Below, one piece after another: positions 12,678-63,109 of a stretch of DNA of 64,000 bases. The notes beneath the pieces were generated by a model. That model was given only the letters and a program-made list of their open reading frames with translations, did not search any database and was not told the DNA's origin. The first letter of the stretch is position 1. Each line of letters starts with the position of its first letter. This stretch comes from an uncultured Acidovorax sp. (GTDB lineage Bacteria > Pseudomonadota > Gammaproteobacteria > Burkholderiales > Burkholderiaceae_C): the NCBI GenBank assembly GCA_913774625.1, contig CAJYHL010000037.1:5353-69352 (forward strand), in the 5' to 3' direction. The position numbers were made by a program, and so were the translations under genes.

Positions 12678-13406
12678 ATGCCCCGTTTCCACTGTCCCCT
12701 GCCCCTGGCCTCCGGCGCCGTGCTGGCACTGCCGCCCACGGCCGCGCGCCATGTGCAGGTGCTGCGGCTGCAGCCGGGCGACGCCATCACGCTGTTCGAC
12801 GGGCGCGGCGGCGAGCATGCCGCCACCGTCACCCGCATGGGCCGATCCGACGTGGAGGTCGAGATCGGCGCGCACGACCCGGTCGAGCGCGAGGCCGCCC
12901 GCGCCGTCCACCTGGTCGTGGGCATGCCGGCCAACGAGCGCATGGACTGGCTGGTCGAAAAAGCCACCGAGCTGGGCGCCGCCAGCATCCAGCCCGTGGC
13001 CGCCGCGCGCAGCGTGCTCAAGCTGGCCGGCGAGCGCGCCGCCAAGCGCCAGGCCCACTGGCAGGCCATCGCCGTGGCTGCCTGCGAGCAATGCGGCCGC
13101 AACCGCGTGCCCACCGTCCACGCCCCCCTGCCGCTGGCCGAGGGCCTGCGCAGCACCGCCGCTGCGGCCGACGCCGACGGCACCCGCCTGGTGCTGTCCC
13201 TGCGCGCCGGCAGCCGCTCCTTGCGCGATGCCGCGGGCGCCGGCAGCGGCCCGGTCTGGGTGCTGCACGGCCCCGAAGGCGGGCTGACGGGCCAGGAGGA
13301 AGACGCGGCCATCGCCGCCGGCTTCGCCCCGGCCGGCCTGGGCGCACGCGTGCTGCGGGCCGAAACCGCTTCCGTCGCCGCGCTGGCGCAGCTGGTCTTC
13401 CCATGA
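12678..13406 (+). CDS. rsmE: 16S rRNA m3U1498 methyltransferase
   Basis: HVQVLRL, EKATELG, ACEQCGRN, GPEGG, LGARVLRAETA. Confidence 0.95.
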   Translation: MPRFHCPLPLASGAVLALPPTAARHVQVLRLQPGDAITLFDGRGGEHAATVTRMGRSDVEVEIGAHDPVEREAARAVHLVVGMPANERMDWLVEKATELGAASIQPVAAARSVLKLAGERAAKRQAHWQAIAVAACEQCGRNRVPTVHAPLPLAEGLRSTAAAADADGTRLVLSLRAGSRSLRDAAGAGSGPVWVLHGPEGGLTGQEEDAAIAAGFAPAGLGARVLRAETASVAALAQLVFP

Positions 13407-14791
13407 GCGCGGGCACCCGTCAACAGGCGGCCGTGCAGCAGCCGCCCGCTGCGGCATTGCCCGCCGACACGGCCGCCAGCAATGCCAGCCTGGCCGACTT
13501 CTTCCGCGATGCCGACGCCGCTGCCGATGCGCCCCTGCTCTGGCGCATCGCGCAGCAACAGGCGCTGACGCAGGCGCTCAGCGGCCTGTTCCACGGCCCG
13601 GCCGCGCTGGTGCAGCTGCGCCTCTGGGTCTTCCTGCAGCTGGCCTCGCACGGCGAGGCGCTGCTGCCGCGCGAGCGCATCGACGAGCTGTTCCACGCCC
13701 TGCGCCCCGAGGCGCTGGAGACCGTGCTCAAGCGACTGCGCGATGCGGGCCTGCTGGCCTGGGACGAGAGCCAGCGCGCCTACGCCCTGCCCCCGCTGGC
13801 CCAGCGCGTGGCGGGCCTGCTGTCACCGCTGGCCAGCGAAGCGCCGCCGCTGGAGGGCGACGACGAGGGCGGCGAGCTGGCCGCGCTGCTGGGCTCGGTG
13901 GTCGGGGCCAACCAGCTGGGCCATGTCGATGCCGGCCAGGTGCAGCTGCTGCACGCGCAGCTGGCCCGGCTGCACGGCGAATTCGCCGACGCCATCGCCA
14001 GCGGCTCGGAATTCCGCCTGCGCGAAGCCCGCAAACGCTACGACCGCGCGGCCACGCTGATCGACCGGGCCTCCGACGCCATCACCGCCATCATCACCAA
14101 CGCCCACGGCCACATCGCGCTGGAGCGCGCCGCGCGCGGGCTGGGCCAGGCGCAGTCGCGCCTGCTGGCCATGGCCAGCCAGTTCAACCGCGCGCTACAG
14201 CAGGTGGACCGCCAGCGCGTCACGCTGGGCACCACGGGCCTCACCAGCACCGACGTCAAGCGCTGGCTGCAGTCCACGCCCGAACCCCACCGGCTGCTGC
14301 ACGGCGCGCTGGCCGCGCCCACGCCCTTCGTGGCCGGGCTGGCGCCGCACGAGCTGCTGGACGTGGTGGAAGCCGAGTTCGAGCGCGACCGCCCCGCCGC
14401 CGAAGCGCCCGAGGCCCTGCCCGAACCGCAGGCCGCGCCCGCCGGCTCGCTGGCCGCCGTGGCCCTGCCCGGCGAGCTGACCGACCTCTGCGCCCTGCTG
14501 GCCGGCTGGACGCTGGCGGGGCAGGAGGAGGGCGCCCCGCGCACCGTGGCCGATGCACTGCTGCACGCGGCGCCCGGCGCCGCAGACGTCCGCTACGCCC
14601 AGGTGGCCTACAAGGCCCAGCTGCTGCCGCTGCTGGGCGATCCGCAGGCTGCCGTGCTGCCCGGCGCCACGGGCGAGCTGGCCCGCCAGCCCTGGCGCGT
14701 GCAGTGGGAGCCCGCTGCCGACACGCTGGACCACCCGCAGGTCCTGCGCCTGAGCCAGGGCACGCTGGTGCCCGCCCGGCAGGACGACTGA
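13403..14791 (+). CDS. Putative kleisin subunit of SMC-like complex (MksF/JetA-like)
   Basis: Winged-helix-like N-terminus (LETVLKRLRDAGLLAWD) then helical region; first gene of a four-gene block with an SMC ATPase; 462 aa. Confidence 0.6.
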   Translation: MSAGTRQQAAVQQPPAAALPADTAASNASLADFFRDADAAADAPLLWRIAQQQALTQALSGLFHGPAALVQLRLWVFLQLASHGEALLPRERIDELFHALRPEALETVLKRLRDAGLLAWDESQRAYALPPLAQRVAGLLSPLASEAPPLEGDDEGGELAALLGSVVGANQLGHVDAGQVQLLHAQLARLHGEFADAIASGSEFRLREARKRYDRAATLIDRASDAITAIITNAHGHIALERAARGLGQAQSRLLAMASQFNRALQQVDRQRVTLGTTGLTSTDVKRWLQSTPEPHRLLHGALAAPTPFVAGLAPHELLDVVEAEFERDRPAAEAPEALPEPQAAPAGSLAAVALPGELTDLCALLAGWTLAGQEEGAPRTVADALLHAAPGAADVRYAQVAYKAQLLPLLGDPQAAVLPGATGELARQPWRVQWEPAADTLDHPQVLRLSQGTLVPARQDD

Positions 14792-14841
14792 CCGCCCCGC
14801 GCCCCCGACAAGAAGAACCAGAACCGAACGACCCCGATTCC

Positions 14842-15567
14842 ATGGACGAAGCCGCCCTCCTCATCTCCGAACTGCTGGCCCGCCGCTGGCTGCCGCGCAG
14901 CCATCCGCGCGTCAAGCGCGCGCTGGTCGATGCCGAACTCTTCGCCCAGGTCGAACAGCGCCTGGCGCAGTCCGGCCTGCGCTTTCTCGACAGCATCTAT
15001 GCCGACCACGTCAGCCTGGGCCTGCTGCCCGCCGCGCAGAACGCCGTGCTGGGCGAGGCCGGCGCCAACGCCAACAACAACCTGGAGCTGCCGCGCGACG
15101 CGCAGGCGCTGCTGGTGGTGCTGTGGGCGCTCATCGTGCTGCCGAAGCGCGAGCGCCAGACCAGCCGCGTGCAGGAAGCCGACGCCGGCCAGAGCGACTT
15201 CTTCCCTGGCGCCAAGCCGCTGCCCGCCGCGCGCCTTGCCAGCCCCGTGCTGTCGTACAAGACCCTGCTGGAGGACTACGGCCCGCAGCTGGGCAAGAAG
15301 CTGCGGCTGGACGCCAACCTGAAGCTGCTGGAGCGCCACGGCTTCATCGTGCGCCGCCAGGACGAGATCGCCGAAGGCCCGCTGCTGGACGTGCTGCTGG
15401 ACTACGACGTGCTGGCACCGCGCATCCTCGACGGCGCCCTGGCCGACGTGCTGCTGCGCGAGCGCGCCGAAGCCGAACCGGCATCCGCATCCGCACCTGA
15501 AGAAAATCCGGCCGCAGCCCAGGATGCAGGCGGGCCATCCGCTATCGAAAACGAAGTGCAGGAGTAA
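14842..15567 (+). CDS. Putative kite subunit (MksE/JetB-like)
   Basis: 241 aa between kleisin-like and SMC genes; tandem winged-helix-like segments (LKLLERHGFI...EGPLL). Confidence 0.6.
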   Translation: MDEAALLISELLARRWLPRSHPRVKRALVDAELFAQVEQRLAQSGLRFLDSIYADHVSLGLLPAAQNAVLGEAGANANNNLELPRDAQALLVVLWALIVLPKRERQTSRVQEADAGQSDFFPGAKPLPAARLASPVLSYKTLLEDYGPQLGKKLRLDANLKLLERHGFIVRRQDEIAEGPLLDVLLDYDVLAPRILDGALADVLLRERAEAEPASASAPEENPAAAQDAGGPSAIENEVQE

Positions 15568-15575
15568 GCCAACCC

Positions 15576-18410
15576 GTGTTCCACCTGCAGACCCTCGAAC
15601 TCGTCCACTGGGACTACTGCCAGCGCGTGGCCCTGCCGCTGGACGCCTCCATCATCACCATCGCCGGCCCCAACGGCTCGGGCAAGACCACGCTGCTGGA
15701 CGCCATGCGCACCCTGCTGGGCCTGCGCTGCTCGTCGCCGCGCGACTGGCGCACCTACGCCCGCCATGCCGGCGCGCAGACCGCCTGGCTGCGCGCCGTG
15801 GTGGACAACCGGCCGCAGGGCCGCCAGACCTCCAGCCGGCCCTTCGCGCGGCGGCTGATCTACACCGACCAGGTCACGCTGGCCTGCCGCATCGACCGCA
15901 ACGGCGGCGACTGGCAGCGCCGCTACTGCCTGGTGGAAGGCGATGCCGGCATCGAACAGCTGCAGGACACGCCCGAAAAGGACCTGGGCTACATGGGCGT
16001 GGAAGCCTGGGGCCGGGTGCTGTCGGCCGCAGGCCTCTCGCCCGCCATCGCCCGCGTGCTGTCGCTGGAGCAGGGCCAGACCGACCGGCTGTGCGAATTC
16101 AGCCCGCGCGAGCTGCTGCGCCTGGTGTTCGACGTGTTCGGCGACCAGCAGGTGCTGGACGCCTACGACCAGGCCCGCGAGCACCAGCAGCAGCTGGTGC
16201 GCGAAATGGCCCAGGCCGAACGCGAACTCGACCACGGCCGCGCCCAGCTGACCGAGCTGCACAACCGCGTGACCAGCTACAAGACCTGGCAGCTCAAGCT
16301 GGCCGAGCGCGAGCGCCTGGCCACCGAGGTGCTGCCCGTGCTGGCCTGGCACGGCGAGCGCGAAGGGCTGACGCGGCAGTCGCGCGAGCTGCGCCGCCAG
16401 AAGAGCCAGCACCGCGCAGCGCTGGCCGACCAGGCCATCCAGAACAAGCGCCTCTTGCACCTGCTCGATGAAGGCGCCCGCGCCCAGGCCGAGGCCGAGC
16501 GCCTGCAGGCCGAGCGCGACGAAGCCCGCGCCCAGCTCGACACCGCCACGCGCCACGAATCGCCGCTGGAGCAGATCGCCCGGCGCGAGGCCGAGCTGCT
16601 GGCCCTGGTGGACAAGGGCAGCAATGCCGACGAGCTGCAGGCCCATCTGGCCGATCTGCAGCGGCAAGAGGCCGATGCGCAGGACGAGCGCAGCGTGCTG
16701 CAGCAGCGCCGCAAGCTGGCCGCCGAAGCGCTCAAGGCGCTGGAAGGCCAGCAGCTGCCGCCGCAGCCGGCCGAGGTGCAGCAGTTCCGCCGCCGACTCG
16801 CGGCCCAGGGCATAGGCCACCAGTTCGTGGCCGAAGTGGTCGAGGTGGCCGACGAAGCCTGGCGCGCGGCCATCGAAGGCGTGCTGCGCGGCCACCGCTG
16901 GGTGACGCTGCTGGACAAGGAAAGCGACCTCGCCGAGGCCTACGACATCGGCGAGCGCGAGCGCTTCCGGCACTACATCGTCGGTCCCGGCGAGAAGGTG
17001 TTGCGCGGCGAGCCCGGCACCCTGCTGGCCCATGTGCGCTTCACCGCGCCCGTGCCGCGCTGGCTGGTGCAGCAGCTGCAGCAGCTGCGCTGCGTGGCCG
17101 ACCCGCGCGAGGGCAAGCGCCTGGGCGGCAGCTGGATCACGCCGCAGGCCTACATGCACGACGGGCGCGGCGCCCGCTCGATGTGGGTGGAGCCGCGCGA
17201 CCACCAGTTCGGCGCCGCCGCCGTCCATGCGCGCCGCAGCGCCGCCGAACGCGACCTGGCGCAGATCGACGCCCAGCTGGCGCCGGTGCTGGACCGGCTC
17301 ATGGCCCTCAAGCGCCAGATCACCGATACCCGCCGCGCCCTGGAAGGCCACAGCGCCGCCGAAGAGCTGGCACGCCGCAGCGACGAATTCGCCCAGGCCC
17401 GGGCCGAACTGCCCGCCGCCAGGCAGGCCCGCATCGCCGCCGCCCAGCGCTGGCAGCGGCTGGACACCGACGCCGGCCGCGCCCACGAACGCCACCGCGC
17501 CTTCATCGACGAGCACCAGCGCGTCGAAAAGGAACTGCAGCGCTCGCGGGGCGAGAGCGAGCGCGCCGCGCAGGACTGGACGGCCCGCCGCCGCGCCCAT
17601 GCCGCCGCCGTGGCGCGCAGCCAGGGCCGGCGCGCGCAGTTCCCGCCGCGCTGGGTGGCGCCGGCCACTCTGGCAGCGCTGGTCGCAGACTTCGTCAACG
17701 ACACCCAGGCCCGGCTGCGCCTGCAGGCCGTGGAGCAGGAACTGGAACACGGCAGCTGGGAGCAGGACGCCACGGTCGAGGAACGGCACCGCCGCATGGA
17801 CGTCACGGTGCGCGAGCAGGCCGCGAGCCTGGCCGACCACCAGATCAAGAACGCCCAGGCCGCCACGGCCGTGATGAACGCGCGCGAGAGCTACATCGAG
17901 GTGCTGCGCAGCACGGTGCGCCGCTACCGCAAGAACATCCAGGAACTGGGCGCGCTGGCCGGCGTGGAAGTGGCGGCCGAGCTGCCCCTCCTGGAGAACG
18001 ACGACACCGTGCTGGCCCAGGCGGGCCTCAAGGTGCAGTTCGCCTTCGACGGCAAGGGCAGCATCGGGCTGAACGACGGCGAGGCCTCGGGCGGCCAGCA
18101 GGTCATCAAGTCGCTGATCCTCCTGGTGGGGCTGCTCAAGGACGAGGAAAGCGGATCGGGCGGCTTCGTCTTCATCGACGAGCCCTTCGCCCACCTGGAC
18201 GTGCGCAACATCCAGCTGGTGGGCCACTTCCTGCGCTCCACCCAGGCGCAGTACGTGCTGACCACGCCCATCACCCACAACCTCGAAGTCTTCGAGCCCG
18301 CCGAGATCACCCTGGTGACCAGCAAGAAGCCCAAGGGCAGCCGCTGGGCGCCGCCCATCGCGGTGGCGCAGCGGCGCGGCGTGCCGGTGCTGGAGCCGGT
18401 GCCGACCTAG
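15576..18410 (+). CDS. mksB: SMC-family ATPase (MksB/JetC-like), 944 aa
   Basis: Walker A GPNGSGKT, long coiled coils around a central hinge-like region, signature SGGQQ, Walker B VFIDEPFAHLD; GTG start. Confidence 0.8.
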   Translation: MFHLQTLELVHWDYCQRVALPLDASIITIAGPNGSGKTTLLDAMRTLLGLRCSSPRDWRTYARHAGAQTAWLRAVVDNRPQGRQTSSRPFARRLIYTDQVTLACRIDRNGGDWQRRYCLVEGDAGIEQLQDTPEKDLGYMGVEAWGRVLSAAGLSPAIARVLSLEQGQTDRLCEFSPRELLRLVFDVFGDQQVLDAYDQAREHQQQLVREMAQAERELDHGRAQLTELHNRVTSYKTWQLKLAERERLATEVLPVLAWHGEREGLTRQSRELRRQKSQHRAALADQAIQNKRLLHLLDEGARAQAEAERLQAERDEARAQLDTATRHESPLEQIARREAELLALVDKGSNADELQAHLADLQRQEADAQDERSVLQQRRKLAAEALKALEGQQLPPQPAEVQQFRRRLAAQGIGHQFVAEVVEVADEAWRAAIEGVLRGHRWVTLLDKESDLAEAYDIGERERFRHYIVGPGEKVLRGEPGTLLAHVRFTAPVPRWLVQQLQQLRCVADPREGKRLGGSWITPQAYMHDGRGARSMWVEPRDHQFGAAAVHARRSAAERDLAQIDAQLAPVLDRLMALKRQITDTRRALEGHSAAEELARRSDEFAQARAELPAARQARIAAAQRWQRLDTDAGRAHERHRAFIDEHQRVEKELQRSRGESERAAQDWTARRRAHAAAVARSQGRRAQFPPRWVAPATLAALVADFVNDTQARLRLQAVEQELEHGSWEQDATVEERHRRMDVTVREQAASLADHQIKNAQAATAVMNARESYIEVLRSTVRRYRKNIQELGALAGVEVAAELPLLENDDTVLAQAGLKVQFAFDGKGSIGLNDGEASGGQQVIKSLILLVGLLKDEESGSGGFVFIDEPFAHLDVRNIQLVGHFLRSTQAQYVLTTPITHNLEVFEPAEITLVTSKKPKGSRWAPPIAVAQRRGVPVLEPVPT

Positions 18411-18454
18411 GGCCTGCCCTGCAAGGAAGACCAGCAAACCCGCACGCAACAACC

Positions 18455-19624
18455 ATGACCGTCATCACGCTTCTCAAAGGCCGCCAACGCACTCGAGAAA
18501 GCGATGCTCCCTTCAGCCGCATCGAACGTCTCAACCTCCGGCAGGAAGCACTGCTGAAGCGCTGGCTGGCCTCCCACGCCCAGACCCGCGGCTGGCAGAC
18601 TCTGCTGGAGAGAGCGGGGCTGGACCTGCTGGACTGCGCCGAAGGTTTGCTGGACATCCTGGTGGAAGCCGGCGCAGCCACGGCCCGGGAACGCCTGGTG
18701 CGCGGCACCTGGCAGATTGAGGGGCTGGCGTGGCGCGACCTGTCTGCGCTTCAGCAAGCATTCGGCATCGCGACGGAGGAGGAGCGCCATGCCGTGCGGA
18801 GCGACATACGGCAGCGATTGGCCGTCCTGGCTAGTGATTACCCCTGGCTTCAGCCCGCCGTCGCTAGCTGCCTGGATAGCAGCTGGAGCGCCGACCTGCT
18901 GAAAGCCAGGGCGGAGCTGCTGCATGCCCTCGCCGCCTGGCATGCGGAGCAGCGCTTCGGCAAGCGCCGGGACTTCGCCCTGTACGCGCGTCAGCTCACA
19001 AAGGAAATCACCCACGCAGAATGGAAATGGCTGGAGACCCATGTCGCACTGCAGGCCCTGGGCATCGAAAAGCTGGCGTTCATCCTGTGGCTGGGCGGCA
19101 GCCTGTCACTGCAGACCGGCAGAGGCCGCGTCGATGCGGGTGCTGCAGGCTTCTGCGGTCTGCCCATGAGCAGCCTGATGGGAGAGACCCGCATCCTCGG
19201 TGCTCCGGAGCGCTACTGGCTCATCGAGAACCGCACAAGTTTCGAGCGGCAGGCGATAGAGGCGCAGCCCGGAACCTGCGTGGTCTGGCTGCCAGGCCGG
19301 CCGCCCGAGGACTGGCTGGGTGCACTAGGCTGGCTGCTGGACCATGCGCCCGCACCCGCGCACATCAGCTGCGACCCGGACCCGGCCGGTCTCGATATCG
19401 CCCTCACGGCCGGAGCCCTGTGGGCTGCACGGAAATTGGAATGGCTGCCCTACCGGATGGAGGCGACGATCTGGCAGAACGGCCCCACCACGCCGCACAA
19501 CGCTTTCGACCGCGCGGTCCTCGCGCGTCTGGCAAGACGGGACGACCTGCCCGCGCCGATGGCCGAGTTGCGAGATGCTCTGGAGCGGCAAGGCCGCAAG
19601 GCGGAGCAAGAAGCCTGGCTCTGA
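18455..19624 (+). CDS. Toprim-type nuclease (MksG/JetD-like, DUF2399-like)
   Basis: LIENRTSFE and SCDPDPAGLDIA (DxD) Toprim motifs; directly after the SMC gene. Confidence 0.72.
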   Translation: MTVITLLKGRQRTRESDAPFSRIERLNLRQEALLKRWLASHAQTRGWQTLLERAGLDLLDCAEGLLDILVEAGAATARERLVRGTWQIEGLAWRDLSALQQAFGIATEEERHAVRSDIRQRLAVLASDYPWLQPAVASCLDSSWSADLLKARAELLHALAAWHAEQRFGKRRDFALYARQLTKEITHAEWKWLETHVALQALGIEKLAFILWLGGSLSLQTGRGRVDAGAAGFCGLPMSSLMGETRILGAPERYWLIENRTSFERQAIEAQPGTCVVWLPGRPPEDWLGALGWLLDHAPAPAHISCDPDPAGLDIALTAGALWAARKLEWLPYRMEATIWQNGPTTPHNAFDRAVLARLARRDDLPAPMAELRDALERQGRKAEQEAWL

Positions 19625-19931
19625 AACGCCCGGGGTAGATTGGGAGGGCACGGGAAAGTACCGGGGTCAGGACTGGGGAGAAGTCACCTGACCAGCGGGC
19701 ATAATTTGTTCCAAATTGCGACATACGATGTCTCTTTGTTAACAAATCAGGGAAAAGCCATGCAGGCGGCCCGTCATTGCCCGACAAGACCGGGCACAGC
19801 CTTTTCCGCCCTCCGGGACCGGCCAGACGCAGTCCGACCGCTATTTAGGCGCCGCGCCGCGCGGGCCGGACATTCCCTTCCCCGCTGCCGGGCCTGCGGC
19901 GCGGGCCTTCGGCCTCAAGCCCGAGGCTGAA

Positions 19932-21212
19932 ATGCCGAAATTCACGGAGGTGGCCCATGGCGCAGCCGCAGCGGACGCTGCCTGCCCGCTGCCAGGCCCG
20001 GCTGCCTCCCCCGCCGAGCCCCTTCCCACCCCCGTCTTGCCCCCAGAAAAGGACCCGGCCTTGAACGAGGCTCCGCCGACTGTCGCCCGCAACCGCATCG
20101 CCAGCACCTGGCATGCGGTGCTGGACTTTCTGCTGACCACCGACTGGCGGCAGCGGCACCGCCTCACCATGTGCGCGCTGGCCTGCCTCCTGATGCTCTG
20201 CGGCATCCTGGCCATGCAGATAGTGGCCCGGGCCGGGCTGGCAGATACGCGCCTGGTGGGCGCCTGGACGATGCTGAGCATCGGCGGCATGGCGACGATG
20301 TTCCTGCTGATCCGCAGCGGCCTGGCGCTGCGCTTCTCCGACCCGTCCCTCACCGGTCCGCAGATCCTCTACGGCATCACCTGCGCCGCCATGGCCTTCG
20401 TGATCCTGGCCGTGCCGGCCCGCGGCCTCACCCTGCCGATGCTGGCCGTCATCGTGATGTTCGGCATGTTCGGCCTCACGGCCCGGCAGATGCTGGGGGT
20501 GATGTGCTATGCGCTGGCCCTTTTCGGCGCAGCCATCCTGTCGGTGGAATGGCAGGGCTACTATGGCCAGCGGCCCAGCCTGTCGCTGAGCTACGCGATC
20601 ATCGTCGCGGTGCTGCTGCTGGGCACCACCGTCCTCACGCAGCGCATGCAGACGACGCGCGAGCGCCTGCGCCAGCAGCGCCAGGAACTGGCCCAGGCGC
20701 TGGAGCAGATCCGCCAGCTGGCCACGCACGACGAACTGACGGGCCTGCCCAACCGGCGCCACATGCTCGACCTGATGCGGCACGAGACGCTGCGCGCCAA
20801 GCGCAGCCGGATGCGCCCTCTGCTGGTCCAGCTGGACGTGGACCATTTCAAACTCGTCAACGACACCCACGGCCATGCCGTGGGCGATCAGGTGCTGCAG
20901 TCGTTCGCAGACGCGGCGCGCGGCGCCCTGCGCAAGAGCGACATCTTCTCGCGCTGGGGTGGAGAAGAGTTCGTGCTGATGCTGTGCGACACCGACCGGC
21001 ACGAGGCCCAGGACCTGCTGGAGCGCCTGCGGGTGGAGGTTTCCCGGCCGCGCGTCGTGCGGCCGGAGCTGCCGCCGCTGCGCATCACCGTGTCGATGGG
21101 CGTGGCCACCCTGGGCGACGACGAGCGCGTGGAGTCCGCGCTGGAGCGGGCCGACTTCGCCCTCTACGCGGCCAAGTCCGGCGGCCGCGACCGGGTGGCC
21201 TGGGCGGACTGA
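19932..21212 (+). CDS. Membrane-bound diguanylate cyclase
   Basis: Multiple TM segments; [21 protein letters not shown]-site, GGEEF. Confidence 0.9.
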   Translation: MPKFTEVAHGAAAADAACPLPGPAASPAEPLPTPVLPPEKDPALNEAPPTVARNRIASTWHAVLDFLLTTDWRQRHRLTMCALACLLMLCGILAMQIVARAGLADTRLVGAWTMLSIGGMATMFLLIRSGLALRFSDPSLTGPQILYGITCAAMAFVILAVPARGLTLPMLAVIVMFGMFGLTARQMLGVMCYALALFGAAILSVEWQGYYGQRPSLSLSYAIIVAVLLLGTTVLTQRMQTTRERLRQQRQELAQALEQIRQLATHDELTGLPNRRHMLDLMRHETLRAKRSRMRPLLVQLDVDHFKLVNDTHGHAVGDQVLQSFADAARGALRKSDIFSRWGGEEFVLMLCDTDRHEAQDLLERLRVEVSRPRVVRPELPPLRITVSMGVATLGDDERVESALERADFALYAAKSGGRDRVAWAD

Positions 21213-59869: not shown

Positions 59870-62800
59870 TCAAGAGGAAAGCCAGTACGAGCTCATTCGT
59901 CGCCTGCAGTCAGAGAACCTGGTCCCCCGAGAGATCAAGCAGGTCTTTGACCAGATTCGAGTCACTGGCAACGCTGCCAACCACGCGCTGGCGGGTGATC
60001 ACGCCAAAGCGCTGGCTACACTGAAACTGGCTTGGCAGTTGAGCCTGTGGTTCCATCGAACCTTCAAGCAGCCTGACTTCAAGTCAGGACCATTTGTGCC
60101 GCCTGCGCCACCGCAGGACGAATCCAAAGAGCTGGAAGAAGAGCTGGCCAAGCTGCGTCAGGCGGTGTCTGACTATCAGAGCAAGCATGAACAAGCCGCG
60201 ACGGCATTGCATGCGGCTCAAACGCAGCTGACAGCCCTAGGTGAAGAGCGCTCCGTTTGGGAGCAGATCGCGACCGAGTCGGACCAGGCCAAAGCCAAAC
60301 TCGCAGCCCAACTGGCCGAGCTCCAGGCTCAAGCCAAGGCCGCCCCGCCAGACAGCCTGATGCAACTGGTCGTTTCAGCGAGCAAGGCCGCCACCCTTGT
60401 CGAGCTGGACGAGGCCGAAACTCGCCGGATGATAGACGCGCAGCTGCGCCAGGCGGGCTGGGAGGCTGACACTGAAGTCTTGAAATACAGCAAAGGGGCT
60501 CGCCCAGAAAAAGGGCGCAACCTGGCCATCTCCGAATGGCCGTGCGAGGGCCATCCCGCCGACTACGTGCTCTTCCGTGGCTTGGTCCCCATGGCAGTGG
60601 TTGAGGCCAAACGCCACAGCAAAGACGTCTCCGCTGACCTTCAGCAAAGCAAGCGATACAGCCGCACCTTCTCCCCCTGCGCGGAGATGCAGCTCCACGC
60701 GCAAAACTGGGGGGAGAAGTCTGAGTTCCGAATTCCCTTTGTGTTCGCCACCAATGGCAGGCCCTACCTGCGGCAGCTTGCTACCAAGAGCGACATCTGG
60801 TTCTGCGACCTGCGGGACACCAAGAACCGCAGCGCTGCTTTGGATGGTTGGTATTCACCAGAAGGCCTTCAGGCCCTGTTGCGCCAGGACGAAGGCAAGG
60901 CCCATGCTGAACTGGACAACACCCCGTTCAACTACGGCTTCCCGCTACGCTACTACCAGCAGGCTGCCATCAGGGCGACCGAAAGCAGCATCGCTGAGGG
61001 CCAGCGCGAAATCTTGTTGGCCATGGCCACCGGCACCGGCAAGACCAAGACCTGTATAGCGCTCATCTACCGGCTGCTGAAGTCGCAGCGGTTCCGCCGC
61101 ATTCTGTTCCTGGTGGACCGATCAGCTTTGGGCGAGCAGGTAGCCAACTCCTTCAAAGACACCCGCATGGAGCGTCTGCAAACCTTCGCAGATGCATTCG
61201 GAATCAAGGAGCTGGAGCACCAAACGCCTGATGCAGACACGGCCGTGCATATCGCCACTGTGCAGGGCATGATGCGCCGGGTGTTGTTTCCGGCAGAGGG
61301 CGTGGCGCCACCCACGGTGGATCAATACGACTGCATCGTCATCGACGAATGCCACCGGGGCTACACGCTTGACCGAGAGATGTCCGATACGGAACTCAGC
61401 TTCCGTGGCTTTGACGACTACATCTCCAAGTACCGTCGTGTGCTGGACTACTTTGATGCCGTCAAGATCGGCTTGACCGCAACACCCGCCCTGCACACCA
61501 CCGAGATCTTCGGCCCCCCGGTATACAGCTACAGCTACCGAGAGGCCGTGGTCGATGGCTTCCTGGTGGACTACGAGCCCCCGATCCAGATCCGCACCGA
61601 GCTCTCTGAAAACGGCATGACCTGGAAGGTGGGCGAAGAGGTCAAGATCTACGACGCGCAGCGCAACCAGATCGACCTGTTCAAGGCCCCGGACGAGATC
61701 AAGCTGAAGGTGGATGACTTCAACCGAAAGGTCATCACACGCCCGTTCAATGAGGCCGTTTGTGGCTACCTGGCCCAAGAGATCGACCCCAGTGGTCGGC
61801 GCAAGACCTTGATCTTCTGTGTGAGCAGCGACCATGCAGACCTGGTGGTCGATGTGCTCAAGAAGGCCTTGGAAGACCGCTACGGCGAGGTGGAAGACGA
61901 CGCCGTCATCAAGATCACAGGCAATGCCGACAAGCCGCTGGAGCTGATTCGCCGGTACAAAAACGAGCGCTTGCCCAATGTGGCCGTGACGGTAGACCTG
62001 TTGACCACGGGTGTTGACGTGCCAGAGATCTGCAATCTGGTCTTCCTGCGGCAGGTCAACAGCCGCATCCTGTTCGACCAGATGCTGGGCCGCGCCACCC
62101 GCTTGTGCGAGTTCGATGGCGAAGCCAAAGACTCTTTCCGGGTGTTCGATGCCGTAAAGATCTTCGAGGCCATTGGCAACATGACCGACATGAAGCCCGT
62201 GGTGGTGAACCCGAAGATCTCTTTCAAGCAGCTGGAGCGCGAATTCACCGAGGTGCAATCAGACGAAGCGCGTGAGCTGCTGCGTGAGCAATTCCTGGCC
62301 AAGCTGCAGGTCAAGAAGCGACACCTCAAGGGCAAGGACGCGCAAGACTTCGAAACCAAGGCTGGCATGACGCCTGATGCCTTCATCAAGAAGCTCAAGG
62401 CGCTCAGCCTGCCGGAGGTAGCTGCGTGGTTCACCCAGAACCCCGACCTGGGCGAGATCCTCGACCGCAAGGCCGCAGGCCAAAGCCAGCCCATGTACGT
62501 TTCGGAGCACCCTGATGCGTTCCTGCGTGCAGACCGTGGCTACGGCAACGCCAAGAGGCCCGAAGACTACCTGGATGAATTCAAGAAGTTCATCAGCAGC
62601 CACAGCAATGAGCTGCCCGCGCTGATGGCCGTGCTGACCAAGCCACGTGACCTGACGCGCAAACAGCTCAAAGAGCTGATCTTGGCCCTGGACCAAGCCG
62701 GCTTCAGCGAGGCCCGCCTGGCCACGGCCTGGCGAGAGATGAGCAACCAGGACATCGCCGCTCGCATCGTCGGCTACATTCGCCAGGCCGCGCTGGGCGA

Positions 62801-63109
62801 CGCCCTGTTGCCCTACAGCGAGCGGGTGGACCACGCGCTGCAAGCCCTGCTGGCCACCCCGCCCGGCGGGAAGCCTTGGACGGAGCCTCAGCGCAGCTGG
62901 CTCAAGCGCATTGCCGCACAAACCAAGGCCAACTTGTTGGTTGACCGCGAGGCACTGGACGACCCTGACCTGCTCTTCCGGCGAGAAGGCGGCGGGTTCA
63001 ATCGCCTCGACAAACTTTTCAATGGCCAGCTCCAACCGGTGCTGGACGCTTTCAACGATGCACTCTGGGCACCACCTGCCCAAAGTGCCTGACGCAGTAG
63101 TACTCATTC

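What the first reader, a model, noticed from the sequence alone, without database searches (positions are those of the whole stretch)
13403..19624. Four-gene MksFEB(G)/Wadjet-like SMC system with a short SMC subunit
Seen: kleisin-like (462 aa), kite-like (241 aa), SMC ATPase (944 aa, intact Walker A, signature and Walker B) and Toprim nuclease (389 aa) in JetABCD order. Established: Wadjet/MksBEFG extrudes loops and cuts small circular plasmids, while the nuclease-less Pseudomonas MksBEF is a condensin with a similarly short SMC. Inference: a condensin-sized MksBEF paired with a DUF2399-like nuclease may be an unclassified Wadjet subtype or a dual housekeeping/defence machine, about 35-40 kb from dnaA.
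Basis: partly seen in the sequence, partly recalled or inferred. Interest (0 to 1): 0.62.

Follow-up and report, generated by a model that had tools for sequence, protein, structure and literature searches.

The report
Compact Wadjet-like SMC operon, optional nuclease
This Acidovorax-like bacterium carries a four-gene DNA-looping motor plus DNA-cutting enzyme built like the Wadjet anti-plasmid system but too diverged for standard detectors, and its relatives keep the motor at the same chromosomal spot while repeatedly losing the cutter, which makes the family a natural test of how a defence machine may turn into a chromosome-folding one.

Summary
Four co-directional genes (13403-19624) encode a kleisin-like protein (462 aa), a KITE protein (241 aa), an SMC ATPase (944 aa, all ATPase motifs intact) and a JetD-type Toprim nuclease (389 aa, catalytic E and DxD intact), 33 kb from dnaA.

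No Pfam, PADLOC or NCBIfam model recognises the first two proteins. Their predicted folds match JetB (clearly) and MukF (weakly). The SMC and nuclease match Wadjet type I models only weakly.

The operon is not a mobile island. It sits after rsmE in the same gene order from Acidovorax to Polaromonas, Rhodoferax and Variovorax. Across 73 related loci the three motor genes are always intact and under purifying selection. The nuclease is intact in 22, a decayed remnant in 3 and absent in 44, which needs at least 17 changes on the SMC tree. A sister species lacks all four genes.

Best reading: a compact, diverged branch of the Wadjet/MksBEFG group that cuts small circular DNA here, with a motor that also has a nuclease-independent role.

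Bürmann et al. 2025 (Data S1) list the Massilia branch among Wadjet-group operons without discussing it. This scan met the family twice before on other DNA.

The parts
12678..13406 (+). rsmE (16S rRNA methyltransferase). Conserved upstream neighbour and syntenic anchor; its stop codon overlaps the start of gene A.
   Evidence: Pfam Methyltrans_RNA 5.9e-45. rsmE lies directly upstream of A in all syntenic Comamonadaceae loci.
13403..14791 (+). Gene A: kleisin-like subunit (MukF/JetA-like architecture), 462 aa.
   Evidence: No HMM hit. The AF2 model (pLDDT 74.5) shows an N-terminal winged helix, a helical bundle, a disordered linker (327-353) and a C-terminal winged helix. The five best Foldseek hits are all MukF, best E 3.7e-3. 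A family profile hits a PadR-type wHTH at positions 57-128.
14842..15567 (+). Gene B: KITE subunit (tandem winged helix, JetB/MukE-like), 241 aa.
   Evidence: AF2 model with two winged-helix domains, pLDDT 59. Foldseek best hits are 8as8_C at E 1.8e-6 and 8dk1_F/E, then Nse3, ScpB and MukE. hhalign against canonical JetB gives P=0.007 over 146 colinear columns.
15576..18410 (+). Gene C: compact SMC-type ATPase, 944 aa.
   Evidence: Pfam SMC_N 8.7e-14 and AAA_29 1.1e-9. PADLOC JetC1 PDLC00519 6.7e-29. Length is 935-952 aa in all 73 relatives, against 1120-1164 aa for canonical JetC of the same order.
15666..15692 (+). Walker A motif of C (GPNGSGKTT, residues 31-39).
   Evidence: Invariant in 73 sequences.
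16773..17240 (+). Hinge-like central segment of C (residues ~400-555), lying between two poorly conserved arm segments.
   Evidence: Inferred from the conservation profile. No zinc-hook CxxC is present. Pfam SMC_hinge does not recognise it.
18087..18182 (+). Signature motif SGGQ (838-841) and Walker B FVFIDE (864-869) of C.
   Evidence: Invariant in 73 sequences, including lineages without the nuclease.
18455..19624 (+). Gene D: JetD/MksG-type Toprim nuclease (DUF2399-like), 389 aa.
   Evidence: PADLOC JetD1 1.9e-12. All 30 family members hit JetD models. Pfam DUF2399 scores 17.7 bits, below the 23.4 cut-off. Relatives are named DUF2399 proteins. dN/dS is 0.19-0.35.
19226..19234 (+). Toprim glutamate motif E258-N259-R260 of D.
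   Evidence: E258 and N259 are invariant in both D alignments (23 and 30 sequences); R260 is invariant among the 23 close homologues and kept in at least 90% of the wider 30.
19373..19390 (+). Toprim DxD motif D307-P-D309-P-A-G312 of D.
   Evidence: D307, D309, P310 and G312 are invariant in both D alignments; A311 is invariant among the 23 close homologues and kept in at least 90% of the wider 30. It parallels the GDIDxxG motif of canonical JetD.
13401..20130 (.). Segment with no counterpart in the sister species of the same genus (G131), where rsmE is followed directly by the GGDEF, SRAP and M20 genes.
   Evidence: blastn and tblastn of the window against G131:C3.

Best explanation
The locus encodes a complete SMC-kleisin-KITE complex plus a Toprim nuclease. 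It belongs to a compact, strongly diverged branch of the Wadjet/MksBEFG group.

Inferred by analogy with type I Wadjet: A (kleisin) bridges the heads of a C (SMC) dimer, and B (KITE) dimers bind the middle of A. The ATP-driven motor extrudes DNA loops. When a small circular DNA has been fully extruded, the motor licenses D to cut it, so plasmids are restricted while the chromosome is spared.

Inferred from comparative data: the ABC motor also has a selected function that does not need D, most simply MksBEF-like folding or segregation of the chromosome. The motor is kept intact and constrained at the same chromosomal site in many lineages that have lost D.

Shown here: gene content, motifs, folds, synteny, the loss pattern and the selection on each gene. 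Not shown: complex formation, loop extrusion, DNA cleavage or any phenotype.
For: Architecture and folds: JetABCD gene order with short gaps. B is best matched by JetB and other KITEs. A has MukF-like architecture. C has all ABC/SMC motifs and hits JetC1 models. D hits JetD models in 30 of 30 family members and its Toprim E and DxD are invariant.

D is functional here: dN/dS is 0.19-0.35.

D is ancestral: the same four-gene layout with the same protein sizes occurs in distant relatives with 37-41% D identity. The D tree recovers the same major clades as the C tree.

The motor has a D-independent role:
- Among 73 loci, D is intact in 22, decayed in 3 and absent in 44, needing at least 17 changes on the C tree.
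- ABC remains full length, with invariant ATPase motifs and dN/dS of 0.06-0.4, in long-standing D-less clades such as Massilia, Roseateles/Inhella and Castellaniella.
- No substitute effector lies next to D-less operons.

Vertical inheritance: the order ksgA-surA-lptD / APH-rsmE-ABC(D)-GGDEF/M20 is kept across many Comamonadaceae genera.

The genome also has a canonical SMC.

The literature proposes exactly this route from JetABCD to MksBEF/MukBEF.
Against:
- The kleisin assignment of A rests on weak Foldseek scores (E 3.7e-3, TM about 0.15) and on architecture. hhalign against DUF3375 finds nothing.
- The model of B has low confidence (pLDDT 59).
- The D family profile finds no solved JetD by sequence.
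- B has no N-terminal extension where type I JetB carries the IFDR peptide that docks JetD, so coupling of D to the motor may differ or be weak.
- The whole operon is missing from a sister species and from about 86% of sampled genera of the family, so any housekeeping role is dispensable.
- Retention of ABC without D could equally reflect defence that does not use a nuclease.
Confidence: 0.65

Rival explanations
1. Defence only. The system is simply a very diverged Wadjet whose sole role is restricting plasmids or other mobile elements. D-less ABC operons still defend without cutting, for example by compacting, silencing or mis-segregating plasmids as Smc5/6 does with viral DNA. The chromosome is not a relevant substrate.
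For: D is intact and constrained here. D has 2-4 times higher synonymous divergence than ABC and some tree conflicts with C, which could fit arms-race turnover of alleles. The whole system is dispensable and patchy at family scale. One distant relative sits beside phage-like genes and an AAA plus S8-peptidase pair.
Against: The chromosomal position is fixed among housekeeping genes over long evolutionary distances. ABC evolves slowly (dN/dS about 0.1 for C). It is almost never found on plasmids; the only hits are two Variovorax megaplasmids. Entire genera keep ABC without any nuclease.
Confidence: 0.2
2. Condensin with a vestigial passenger. ABC is an MksBEF-like chromosome organiser, and D in this genome is on its way out and no longer contributes.
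For: D is lost in most relatives, and three decaying copies were caught. D has lower GC3 (0.79 against 0.93-0.94) and no obvious ribosome-binding site. The nearest complete relative, Paracidovorax wautersii (C 95% identical), has no D.
Against: D here is full length with an invariant catalytic set and dN/dS of about 0.2 against its nearest homologues. Its length is conserved at 386-407 aa across the family.
Confidence: 0.1
3. Not a kleisin/KITE complex at all. It would instead be a Rad50/SbcC-like, Lamassu-like or other SMC-like ATPase with two unrelated accessory proteins and an OLD/Toprim-type nuclease.
For: C also hits LmuB, AriA, Rad50 and generic AAA models through its head. A has no sequence-level link to any kleisin.
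Against: The best structural matches of B are exclusively KITE proteins, and those of A are MukF. C has a hinge-like centre and no zinc hook. D matches JetD models, not OLD or AriB. Gene order and protein sizes equal those of Wadjet-group FEBG operons catalogued by Bürmann et al..
Confidence: 0.03

Closest known systems
Type I Wadjet / JetABCD (E. coli GF4-3, P. aeruginosa PA14; the same system as MksBEFG of Corynebacterium glutamicum and EptABCD of Mycobacterium smegmatis)
   Same: Four genes in the order kleisin, KITE, SMC, Toprim nuclease. B is about the size of ecJetB (242 aa) and is best matched by its structure. C and D hit JetC1 and JetD1 models. The Toprim E/DxD set is present.
   Different: The kleisin and KITE are not recognised by DUF3375/DUF4194 or by PADLOC JetA/JetB models. 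The SMC is about 180-220 aa shorter than canonical JetC of the same bacterial order (944 against 1120-1164 aa). B has no N-terminal extension at the position of the IFDR peptide. The system is inherited vertically at a housekeeping locus rather than scattered in islands. The nuclease is frequently lost.
MksBEF of Pseudomonas aeruginosa (nuclease-free condensin)
   Same: The D-less relatives form a three-gene kleisin/KITE/SMC operon that coexists with canonical Smc-ScpAB. [quoted passage not shown]
   Different: This genome still has an intact nuclease. Whether the family is specifically related to Pseudomonas MksBEF was not tested, and no chromosome phenotype is known for it.
Wadjet-group operons in Data S1 of Bürmann et al., Cell 2025 (PMC7617805)
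   Same: The table lists Massilia albidiflava FEB #229. Its mksF (1374 nt) and mksB (2829 nt) have the same lengths as the A gene of L103 and the 942-aa C genes of most of my Massilia loci. It also lists compact FEBG operons of matching sizes from Xanthomonadaceae SCN 69-25 (454/227/940/420 aa) and Desulfuromonas acetoxidans (438/238/934/396 aa).
   Different: None of 12 genus or family names of the family's other branches (Acidovorax, Paracidovorax, Alicycliphilus, Diaphorobacter, Polaromonas of this type, Comamonadaceae, Limnohabitans, Roseateles, Castellaniella, Herbaspirillum and others) has an entry of this type in the 80%-clustered table. The paper does not discuss this branch, its synteny or its pattern of nuclease loss. 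That the two non-Massilia entries belong to the family was judged from gene sizes only.
MukBEF (E. coli)
   Same: The predicted fold of A is best matched by MukF. It is a KITE-based SMC complex without HAWKs. MukBEF is a nuclease-free member of the same group that works as a condensin.
   Different: MukB has 1486 aa with much longer arms. MukBEF replaces Smc-ScpAB, whereas this genome keeps Smc. There is no sequence-level similarity to MukF or MukE; the only trace is a sub-threshold match of C to the MukB N-terminal model (15.6 bits, cut-off 23).

Membership tests
Wadjet (JetABCD) types I-III as defined by Doron et al. 2018 and PADLOC | Four-gene operon in the order jetA-jetB-jetC-jetD | tested here: met
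   The genes are co-directional. The A/B, B/C and C/D gaps are 50, 8 and 44 bp.
Wadjet (JetABCD) types I-III as defined by Doron et al. 2018 and PADLOC | JetA recognised as DUF3375 (types I/III) or DUF2397 (type II), or by a PADLOC JetA model | tested here: not met
   No hit at E<=1 for A. None of 36 family members hits such a model. hhalign against a DUF3375 alignment gives probability 0.3%.
Wadjet (JetABCD) types I-III as defined by Doron et al. 2018 and PADLOC | JetB recognised as DUF4194 or DUF2398, or by a PADLOC JetB model | tested here: not met
   No hit for the window's B. Only 4 of 18 family members hit JetB3 or JetB1, and marginally (0.005 and 0.0013). hhalign against canonical JetB gives P=0.007 and probability 5.5%.
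Wadjet (JetABCD) types I-III as defined by Doron et al. 2018 and PADLOC | JetC SMC-type ATPase (PF13555/PF13558, JetC models) | tested here: inconclusive
   AAA_29 (PF13555) scores 38.3 bits, above its cut-off. SbcC_Walker_B (PF13558) scores 18.2 bits, below its cut-off of 27. JetC1 PDLC00519 scores 98.8 bits, largely over the arms. The ATPase motifs are intact.
Wadjet (JetABCD) types I-III as defined by Doron et al. 2018 and PADLOC | JetD Toprim nuclease (DUF2220/DUF2399) with catalytic E and DxD | tested here: met
   JetD1 1.9e-12 for the window's D, and 30 of 30 family members hit JetD models. E258 and D307/D309 are invariant. For the window's protein, DUF2399 is below its cut-off (17.7 against 23.4 bits).
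Wadjet (JetABCD) types I-III as defined by Doron et al. 2018 and PADLOC | ATP-dependent restriction of small circular DNA | not testable with these tools
   This needs transformation assays or reconstitution in vitro.
SMC-kleisin-KITE complexes (fold-level definition) | KITE subunit made of tandem winged-helix domains | tested here: met
   The AF2 model has two wHTH domains. The best Foldseek hits are JetB, Nse3, ScpB and MukE.
SMC-kleisin-KITE complexes (fold-level definition) | Kleisin with an N-terminal WHD/helical bundle and a C-terminal WHD joined by a flexible linker | tested here: inconclusive
   The architecture is present in the model, pLDDT 74.5. The five best Foldseek hits are all MukF, but the best E is only 3.7e-3 and TM is about 0.15.
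Nuclease-free MksBEF/MukBEF condensins | No MksG/JetD nuclease at the locus | tested here: not met
   D is intact in this window. The feature is met in 44 of 73 related loci.
Nuclease-free MksBEF/MukBEF condensins | Contribution to chromosome organisation or segregation | not testable with these tools
   There is only indirect support: vertical inheritance and purifying selection on ABC without D.
Wadjet group in the sense of Bürmann et al. 2025 (iterative MksF/E/B profiles, MksB >890 aa, optional MksG) | Listed, or matching a listed operon, in Data S1 | tested here: inconclusive
   A Massilia member of the same family is listed as FEB #229. No entry of this type was found under 12 genus or family names from the family's other branches. 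The authors' profiles were not available to run.

The most novel reading that the evidence does not exclude
The family records, in many parallel replicates, a Wadjet nuclease complex being domesticated into a condensin-like motor. An ancestral four-gene system became fixed beside rsmE, close to the origin. It has since lost its nuclease a dozen or more times while the motor stayed constrained. That would imply the motor already served the host chromosome while it still carried the nuclease, the 'dual-function machine' that Liu et al. 2022 speculated about.

Sister taxa with and without D (for example the Alicycliphilus, Polaromonas and Rhodoferax pairs) would let this be tested directly.
Probability: 0.35. 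Interest if true: 0.7.

Novelty: new variant of a known kind. Interest (0 to 1): 0.5.

Why it matters
The SMC field has openly speculated that MukBEF and MksBEF arose from Wadjet-type defence complexes by loss of the JetD nuclease, and that Wadjet may act on the chromosome as well as on plasmids. That idea rests on deep, one-off comparisons.

This family offers something more tractable:
- One orthologous locus, inherited vertically.
- Intact, decaying and deleted nuclease genes among close relatives.
- A motor that stays under selection throughout.
- A compact 944-aa SMC suited to biochemistry.

The case also shows that current defence-finder models miss this branch. Two of the four subunits are unrecognised, so surveys of how common Wadjet is will undercount it.

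Tried and rejected
- Sequence searches of A, B and D against solved structures found nothing relevant. This held for single sequences and for family profiles of A, B and D. C hit only generic Rad50/SMC heads.
- hhalign of the A family against canonical DUF3375 found nothing. hhalign of the D family against a heterogeneous six-sequence JetD alignment also found nothing; that alignment was poor, so this negative carries little weight.
- An apparent C-D fusion in G034 (1346-aa ORF) was an artefact of my ORF extension. A stop codon separates the two genes.
- I looked for an alternative effector next to D-less operons. The neighbours are asparagine synthase, DctM, GltX, a chitinase, a GNAT, a LysR regulator and Tag, and a convergent gene follows C directly.
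- I looked for a plasmid-borne origin. The only hits are split matches on two Variovorax megaplasmids.
The lower GC3 is real. However, D recovers the same major clades as C and is present in distant four-gene relatives, so it is ancestral. Some exchange of alleles within the family remains possible: D has 2-4 times higher dS than ABC, and two well-supported conflicts involve Polaromonas and P. anthurii.
- Origin proximity as a functional feature: within Comamonadaceae it follows simply from the conserved lptD-rsmE neighbourhood. Other clades have different flanks. I draw no inference from it.
- The promoter and terminator scan was uninformative in this 70% GC DNA.
- I compared B between D-plus and D-minus lineages for a motif lost together with D. 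None was evident.


Full report
**Observation**

The window is 70% GC DNA from a Comamonadaceae bacterium. Its nearest named relatives are Paracidovorax wautersii and an Acidovorax MAG.

Four co-directional ORFs occupy 13403-19624:
- A: 13403-14791, 462 aa.
- B: 14842-15567, 241 aa.
- C: 15576-18410, 944 aa.
- D: 18455-19624, 389 aa.

The start of A overlaps the stop of rsmE. Upstream lie ksgA, surA and lptD on the other strand, then an APH-family kinase and rsmE. Downstream lie a GGDEF protein, an SRAP protein and an M20 peptidase.

**What the proteins are**

- *Family models.* A and B have no match at E<=1 in Pfam, PADLOC or NCBIfam.
- *C.* It is an SMC-type ATPase: SMC_N 8.7e-14, AAA_29 1.1e-9 and PADLOC JetC1 6.7e-29 at 98.8 bits, with much of that alignment over the arms. 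The canonical SMC model TIGR02168 gives only 70 bits against a cut-off of 567.
- *D.* It matches PADLOC JetD1 (1.9e-12, residues 192-342) and, below threshold, Pfam DUF2399.
- *Solved structures by sequence.* These find only generic Rad50/SMC heads for C and nothing for A, B or D. Family profiles do no better.
- *Fold of B.* Its AF2 model (pLDDT 59) has two winged-helix domains. It is best matched by chains of the E. coli and P. aeruginosa JetABC structures whose lengths fit JetB (8as8_C, E 1.8e-6; 8dk1_F/E). Nse3, ScpB and MukE follow.
- *Fold of A.* Its model (pLDDT 74.5) shows an N-terminal winged helix, a long helical bundle, a disordered linker and a C-terminal winged helix. The five best hits are all MukF, though weak (best E 3.7e-3).
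- *Motifs of C.* Walker A, Q-loop, signature, Walker B, D-loop and H-loop are invariant in 73 family members.
- *Motifs of D.* E258-N-R and D307-x-D309-PAG are invariant in 23 intact homologues. All 30 D-family members tested hit JetD models.

So B is a KITE, C an SMC ATPase and D a JetD-type Toprim protein, all with good support. A is a kleisin with moderate support.

**Distance from canonical Wadjet**

- None of 36 diverse A homologues hits any JetA, DUF3375, DUF2397 or MukF model.
- 4 of 18 B homologues hit JetB models marginally.
- I collected canonical type I operons from the same bacterial order. DUF3375 occurs in 25 of 201 genomes sampled and not in this genome.
- Those operons have JetA of 485-565 aa, JetB of 216-259 aa, JetC of 1120-1164 aa and JetD of 390-398 aa.
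- BLASTP of the window's proteins against them finds only the SMC head motifs.
- hhalign gives nothing for A against JetA. For B against JetB it gives a weak but colinear signal (P=0.007, 146 columns).
- B begins directly at the first winged-helix helix. It therefore lacks the N-terminal extension where type I JetB carries the IFDR peptide that docks JetD.
- The A family is small: 148 clusters at 50% identity among 1.84 billion representatives, and 3 of 400 other genomes in a class-wide sample.

**Distribution and history**

- *Occurrence.* A homologues occur in 21 of 150 other genera sampled from the same GTDB family. They occur in 419 stretches of the species-level genome collection. The hosts are Acidovorax, Paracidovorax, Alicycliphilus, Diaphorobacter, Polaromonas, Rhodoferax/Albidiferax, Limnohabitans, Variovorax, Curvibacter, Roseateles/Inhella/Pelomonas/Ideonella, Castellaniella and Massilia.
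- *Synteny.* In the Comamonadaceae loci the neighbourhood ksgA-surA-lptD / APH-rsmE-ABC(D)-GGDEF/M20 is conserved. In other clades the flanks are ordinary metabolic genes. Only two Variovorax megaplasmids carry homologues.
- *State of D.* ABC is present and full length wherever the contig allows, with C at 935-952 aa. D is intact in 22 of 73 loci, reduced to remnants in 3, absent in 44 and undetermined in 4.
- *The three remnants.* They are in Diaphorobacter nitroreducens, Paracidovorax avenae MDB1 (an internal deletion that removes the Toprim core) and a Rhodoferax MAG.
- *Number of changes.* On the C tree the states are interleaved down to near-identical sequences and need at least 17 changes.
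- *D is ancestral.* The D tree recovers the same major clades as the C tree. There are two well-supported conflicts, involving Polaromonas and P. anthurii. Distant D homologues (37-41% identity) lie in the same four-gene layout with the same protein sizes. D is therefore ancestral and is mostly being lost, not gained.
- *Selection.* Where D is retained its dN/dS is 0.19-0.35. Its synonymous divergence is 2-4 times that of ABC, and in several lineages its GC3 is lower (0.79 against 0.93-0.94 here). ABC has dN/dS of 0.06-0.4 whether or not D is present, including clades that have long lacked it.
- *Whole-operon loss.* The sister species of the same genus has rsmE followed directly by the GGDEF gene, so the whole 6.7-kb segment is missing.
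- *Canonical SMC.* This genome also encodes a canonical SMC.

**Interpretation**

The anatomy is that of a Wadjet/MksBEFG complex. By analogy with type I systems, ABC is a loop-extruding sensor and D the nuclease that it licenses on small circular DNA. That D is intact and constrained here argues that this genome has the cutting form.

The comparative pattern adds a second point. The motor is worth keeping without the nuclease, at a fixed housekeeping locus and for long periods. The simplest reading is an MksBEF-like contribution to chromosome handling. Nuclease-free interference with plasmids cannot be excluded. Neither role is essential, since the whole operon can be lost.

**Relation to what is known**

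[quoted passage not shown] They also state that MukBEF may have a Wadjet-like ancestor and that Wadjet may be a dual-function machine.

Bürmann et al. 2025 catalogued 'Wadjet group' operons with optional MksG by iterative profile searches. Their Data S1 lists Massilia albidiflava FEB #229. Its mksF (1374 nt) and mksB (2829 nt) have the same lengths as the A gene of L103 and the 942-aa C genes of most of my Massilia loci. It also lists two compact FEBG operons of matching sizes, from a Xanthomonadaceae MAG and from Desulfuromonas acetoxidans. None of 12 genus or family names from the family's other branches has an entry of this type in that table, and the paper does not discuss this branch.

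I found no paper linking Wadjet with Acidovorax or Comamonadaceae.

This scan has met the family before on other DNA, with similar conclusions about an optional nuclease. One case was a nuclease-less trio (e1-4187801) and the other a Herbaspirillum four-gene locus (e1-4170876).

**Verdict**

The locus belongs to a compact, diverged variant of a known kind, only partly catalogued and uncharacterised.

Its main value is comparative: many parallel nuclease losses at one orthologous, vertically inherited locus. I score interest at 0.5. It is not surprising in kind, because nuclease-free Wadjet relatives and the domestication idea are already in the literature. It is a good system for testing that idea, and it marks a blind spot in current defence-system detectors.

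Noticed in passing
window 18455-19624 (gene D) compared with 13403-18410: Between close relatives, D has 2-4 times higher synonymous divergence than the adjacent ABC genes (for example 0.78 against about 0.18 for the window and Acidovorax MAG16). Its GC3 is also lower (0.79 against 0.93-0.94). Two well-supported conflicts between the D and C trees (Polaromonas, P. anthurii) hint at exchange of nuclease alleles within the family.
   Followed up: partly
window 18411-18454: There is no recognisable Shine-Dalgarno sequence in the 44 bp before the ATG of D (…gcacgcaacaaccATG). The nuclease may be translated poorly relative to the motor.
   Followed up: no
window 60039-63092 (and the low-GC stretch 58-62 kb): A type I restriction enzyme R subunit (HsdR; ResIII and EcoEI_R_C domains) lies in a region of about 60% GC just after gyrB. 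It is probably a small acquired defence islet next to the origin genes.
   Followed up: no
L146:6945-12990: A distant four-gene relative of the system (D 37% identical) lies next to an AAA ATPase plus Y4kK_N/S8-peptidase gene pair and the phage-type genes YqaJ and Gp3-like. This mobile or defence-like context is unlike the housekeeping context seen here.
   Followed up: no
L121-L143 and L149-L158 (canonical DUF3375 operons of the same order): Canonical type I Wadjet operons occur in 25 of 201 genomes sampled from the order. Most of their JetB proteins lack an obvious LFxxD/IFDR-like N-terminal peptide, which appears in only 3 of 18 sequences.
   Followed up: partly
plasmid records NZ_LR594690.1 (543090-544562) and NZ_LR594663.1 (180829-182193): Two Variovorax megaplasmids (816 and 429 kb, non-mobilizable) carry homologues of C. 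Each match covers only half of the protein, so these may be split or truncated copies on secondary replicons.
   Followed up: no
L047:14006-14791 (Paracidovorax avenae MDB1), L045:13943-14370 (Diaphorobacter nitroreducens), L072:13878-14144: Three nuclease genes are caught in decay: an internal deletion that removes the Toprim core, scattered frameshifted fragments, and a 64-codon remnant. In each case the ABC genes upstream are intact.
   Followed up: yes
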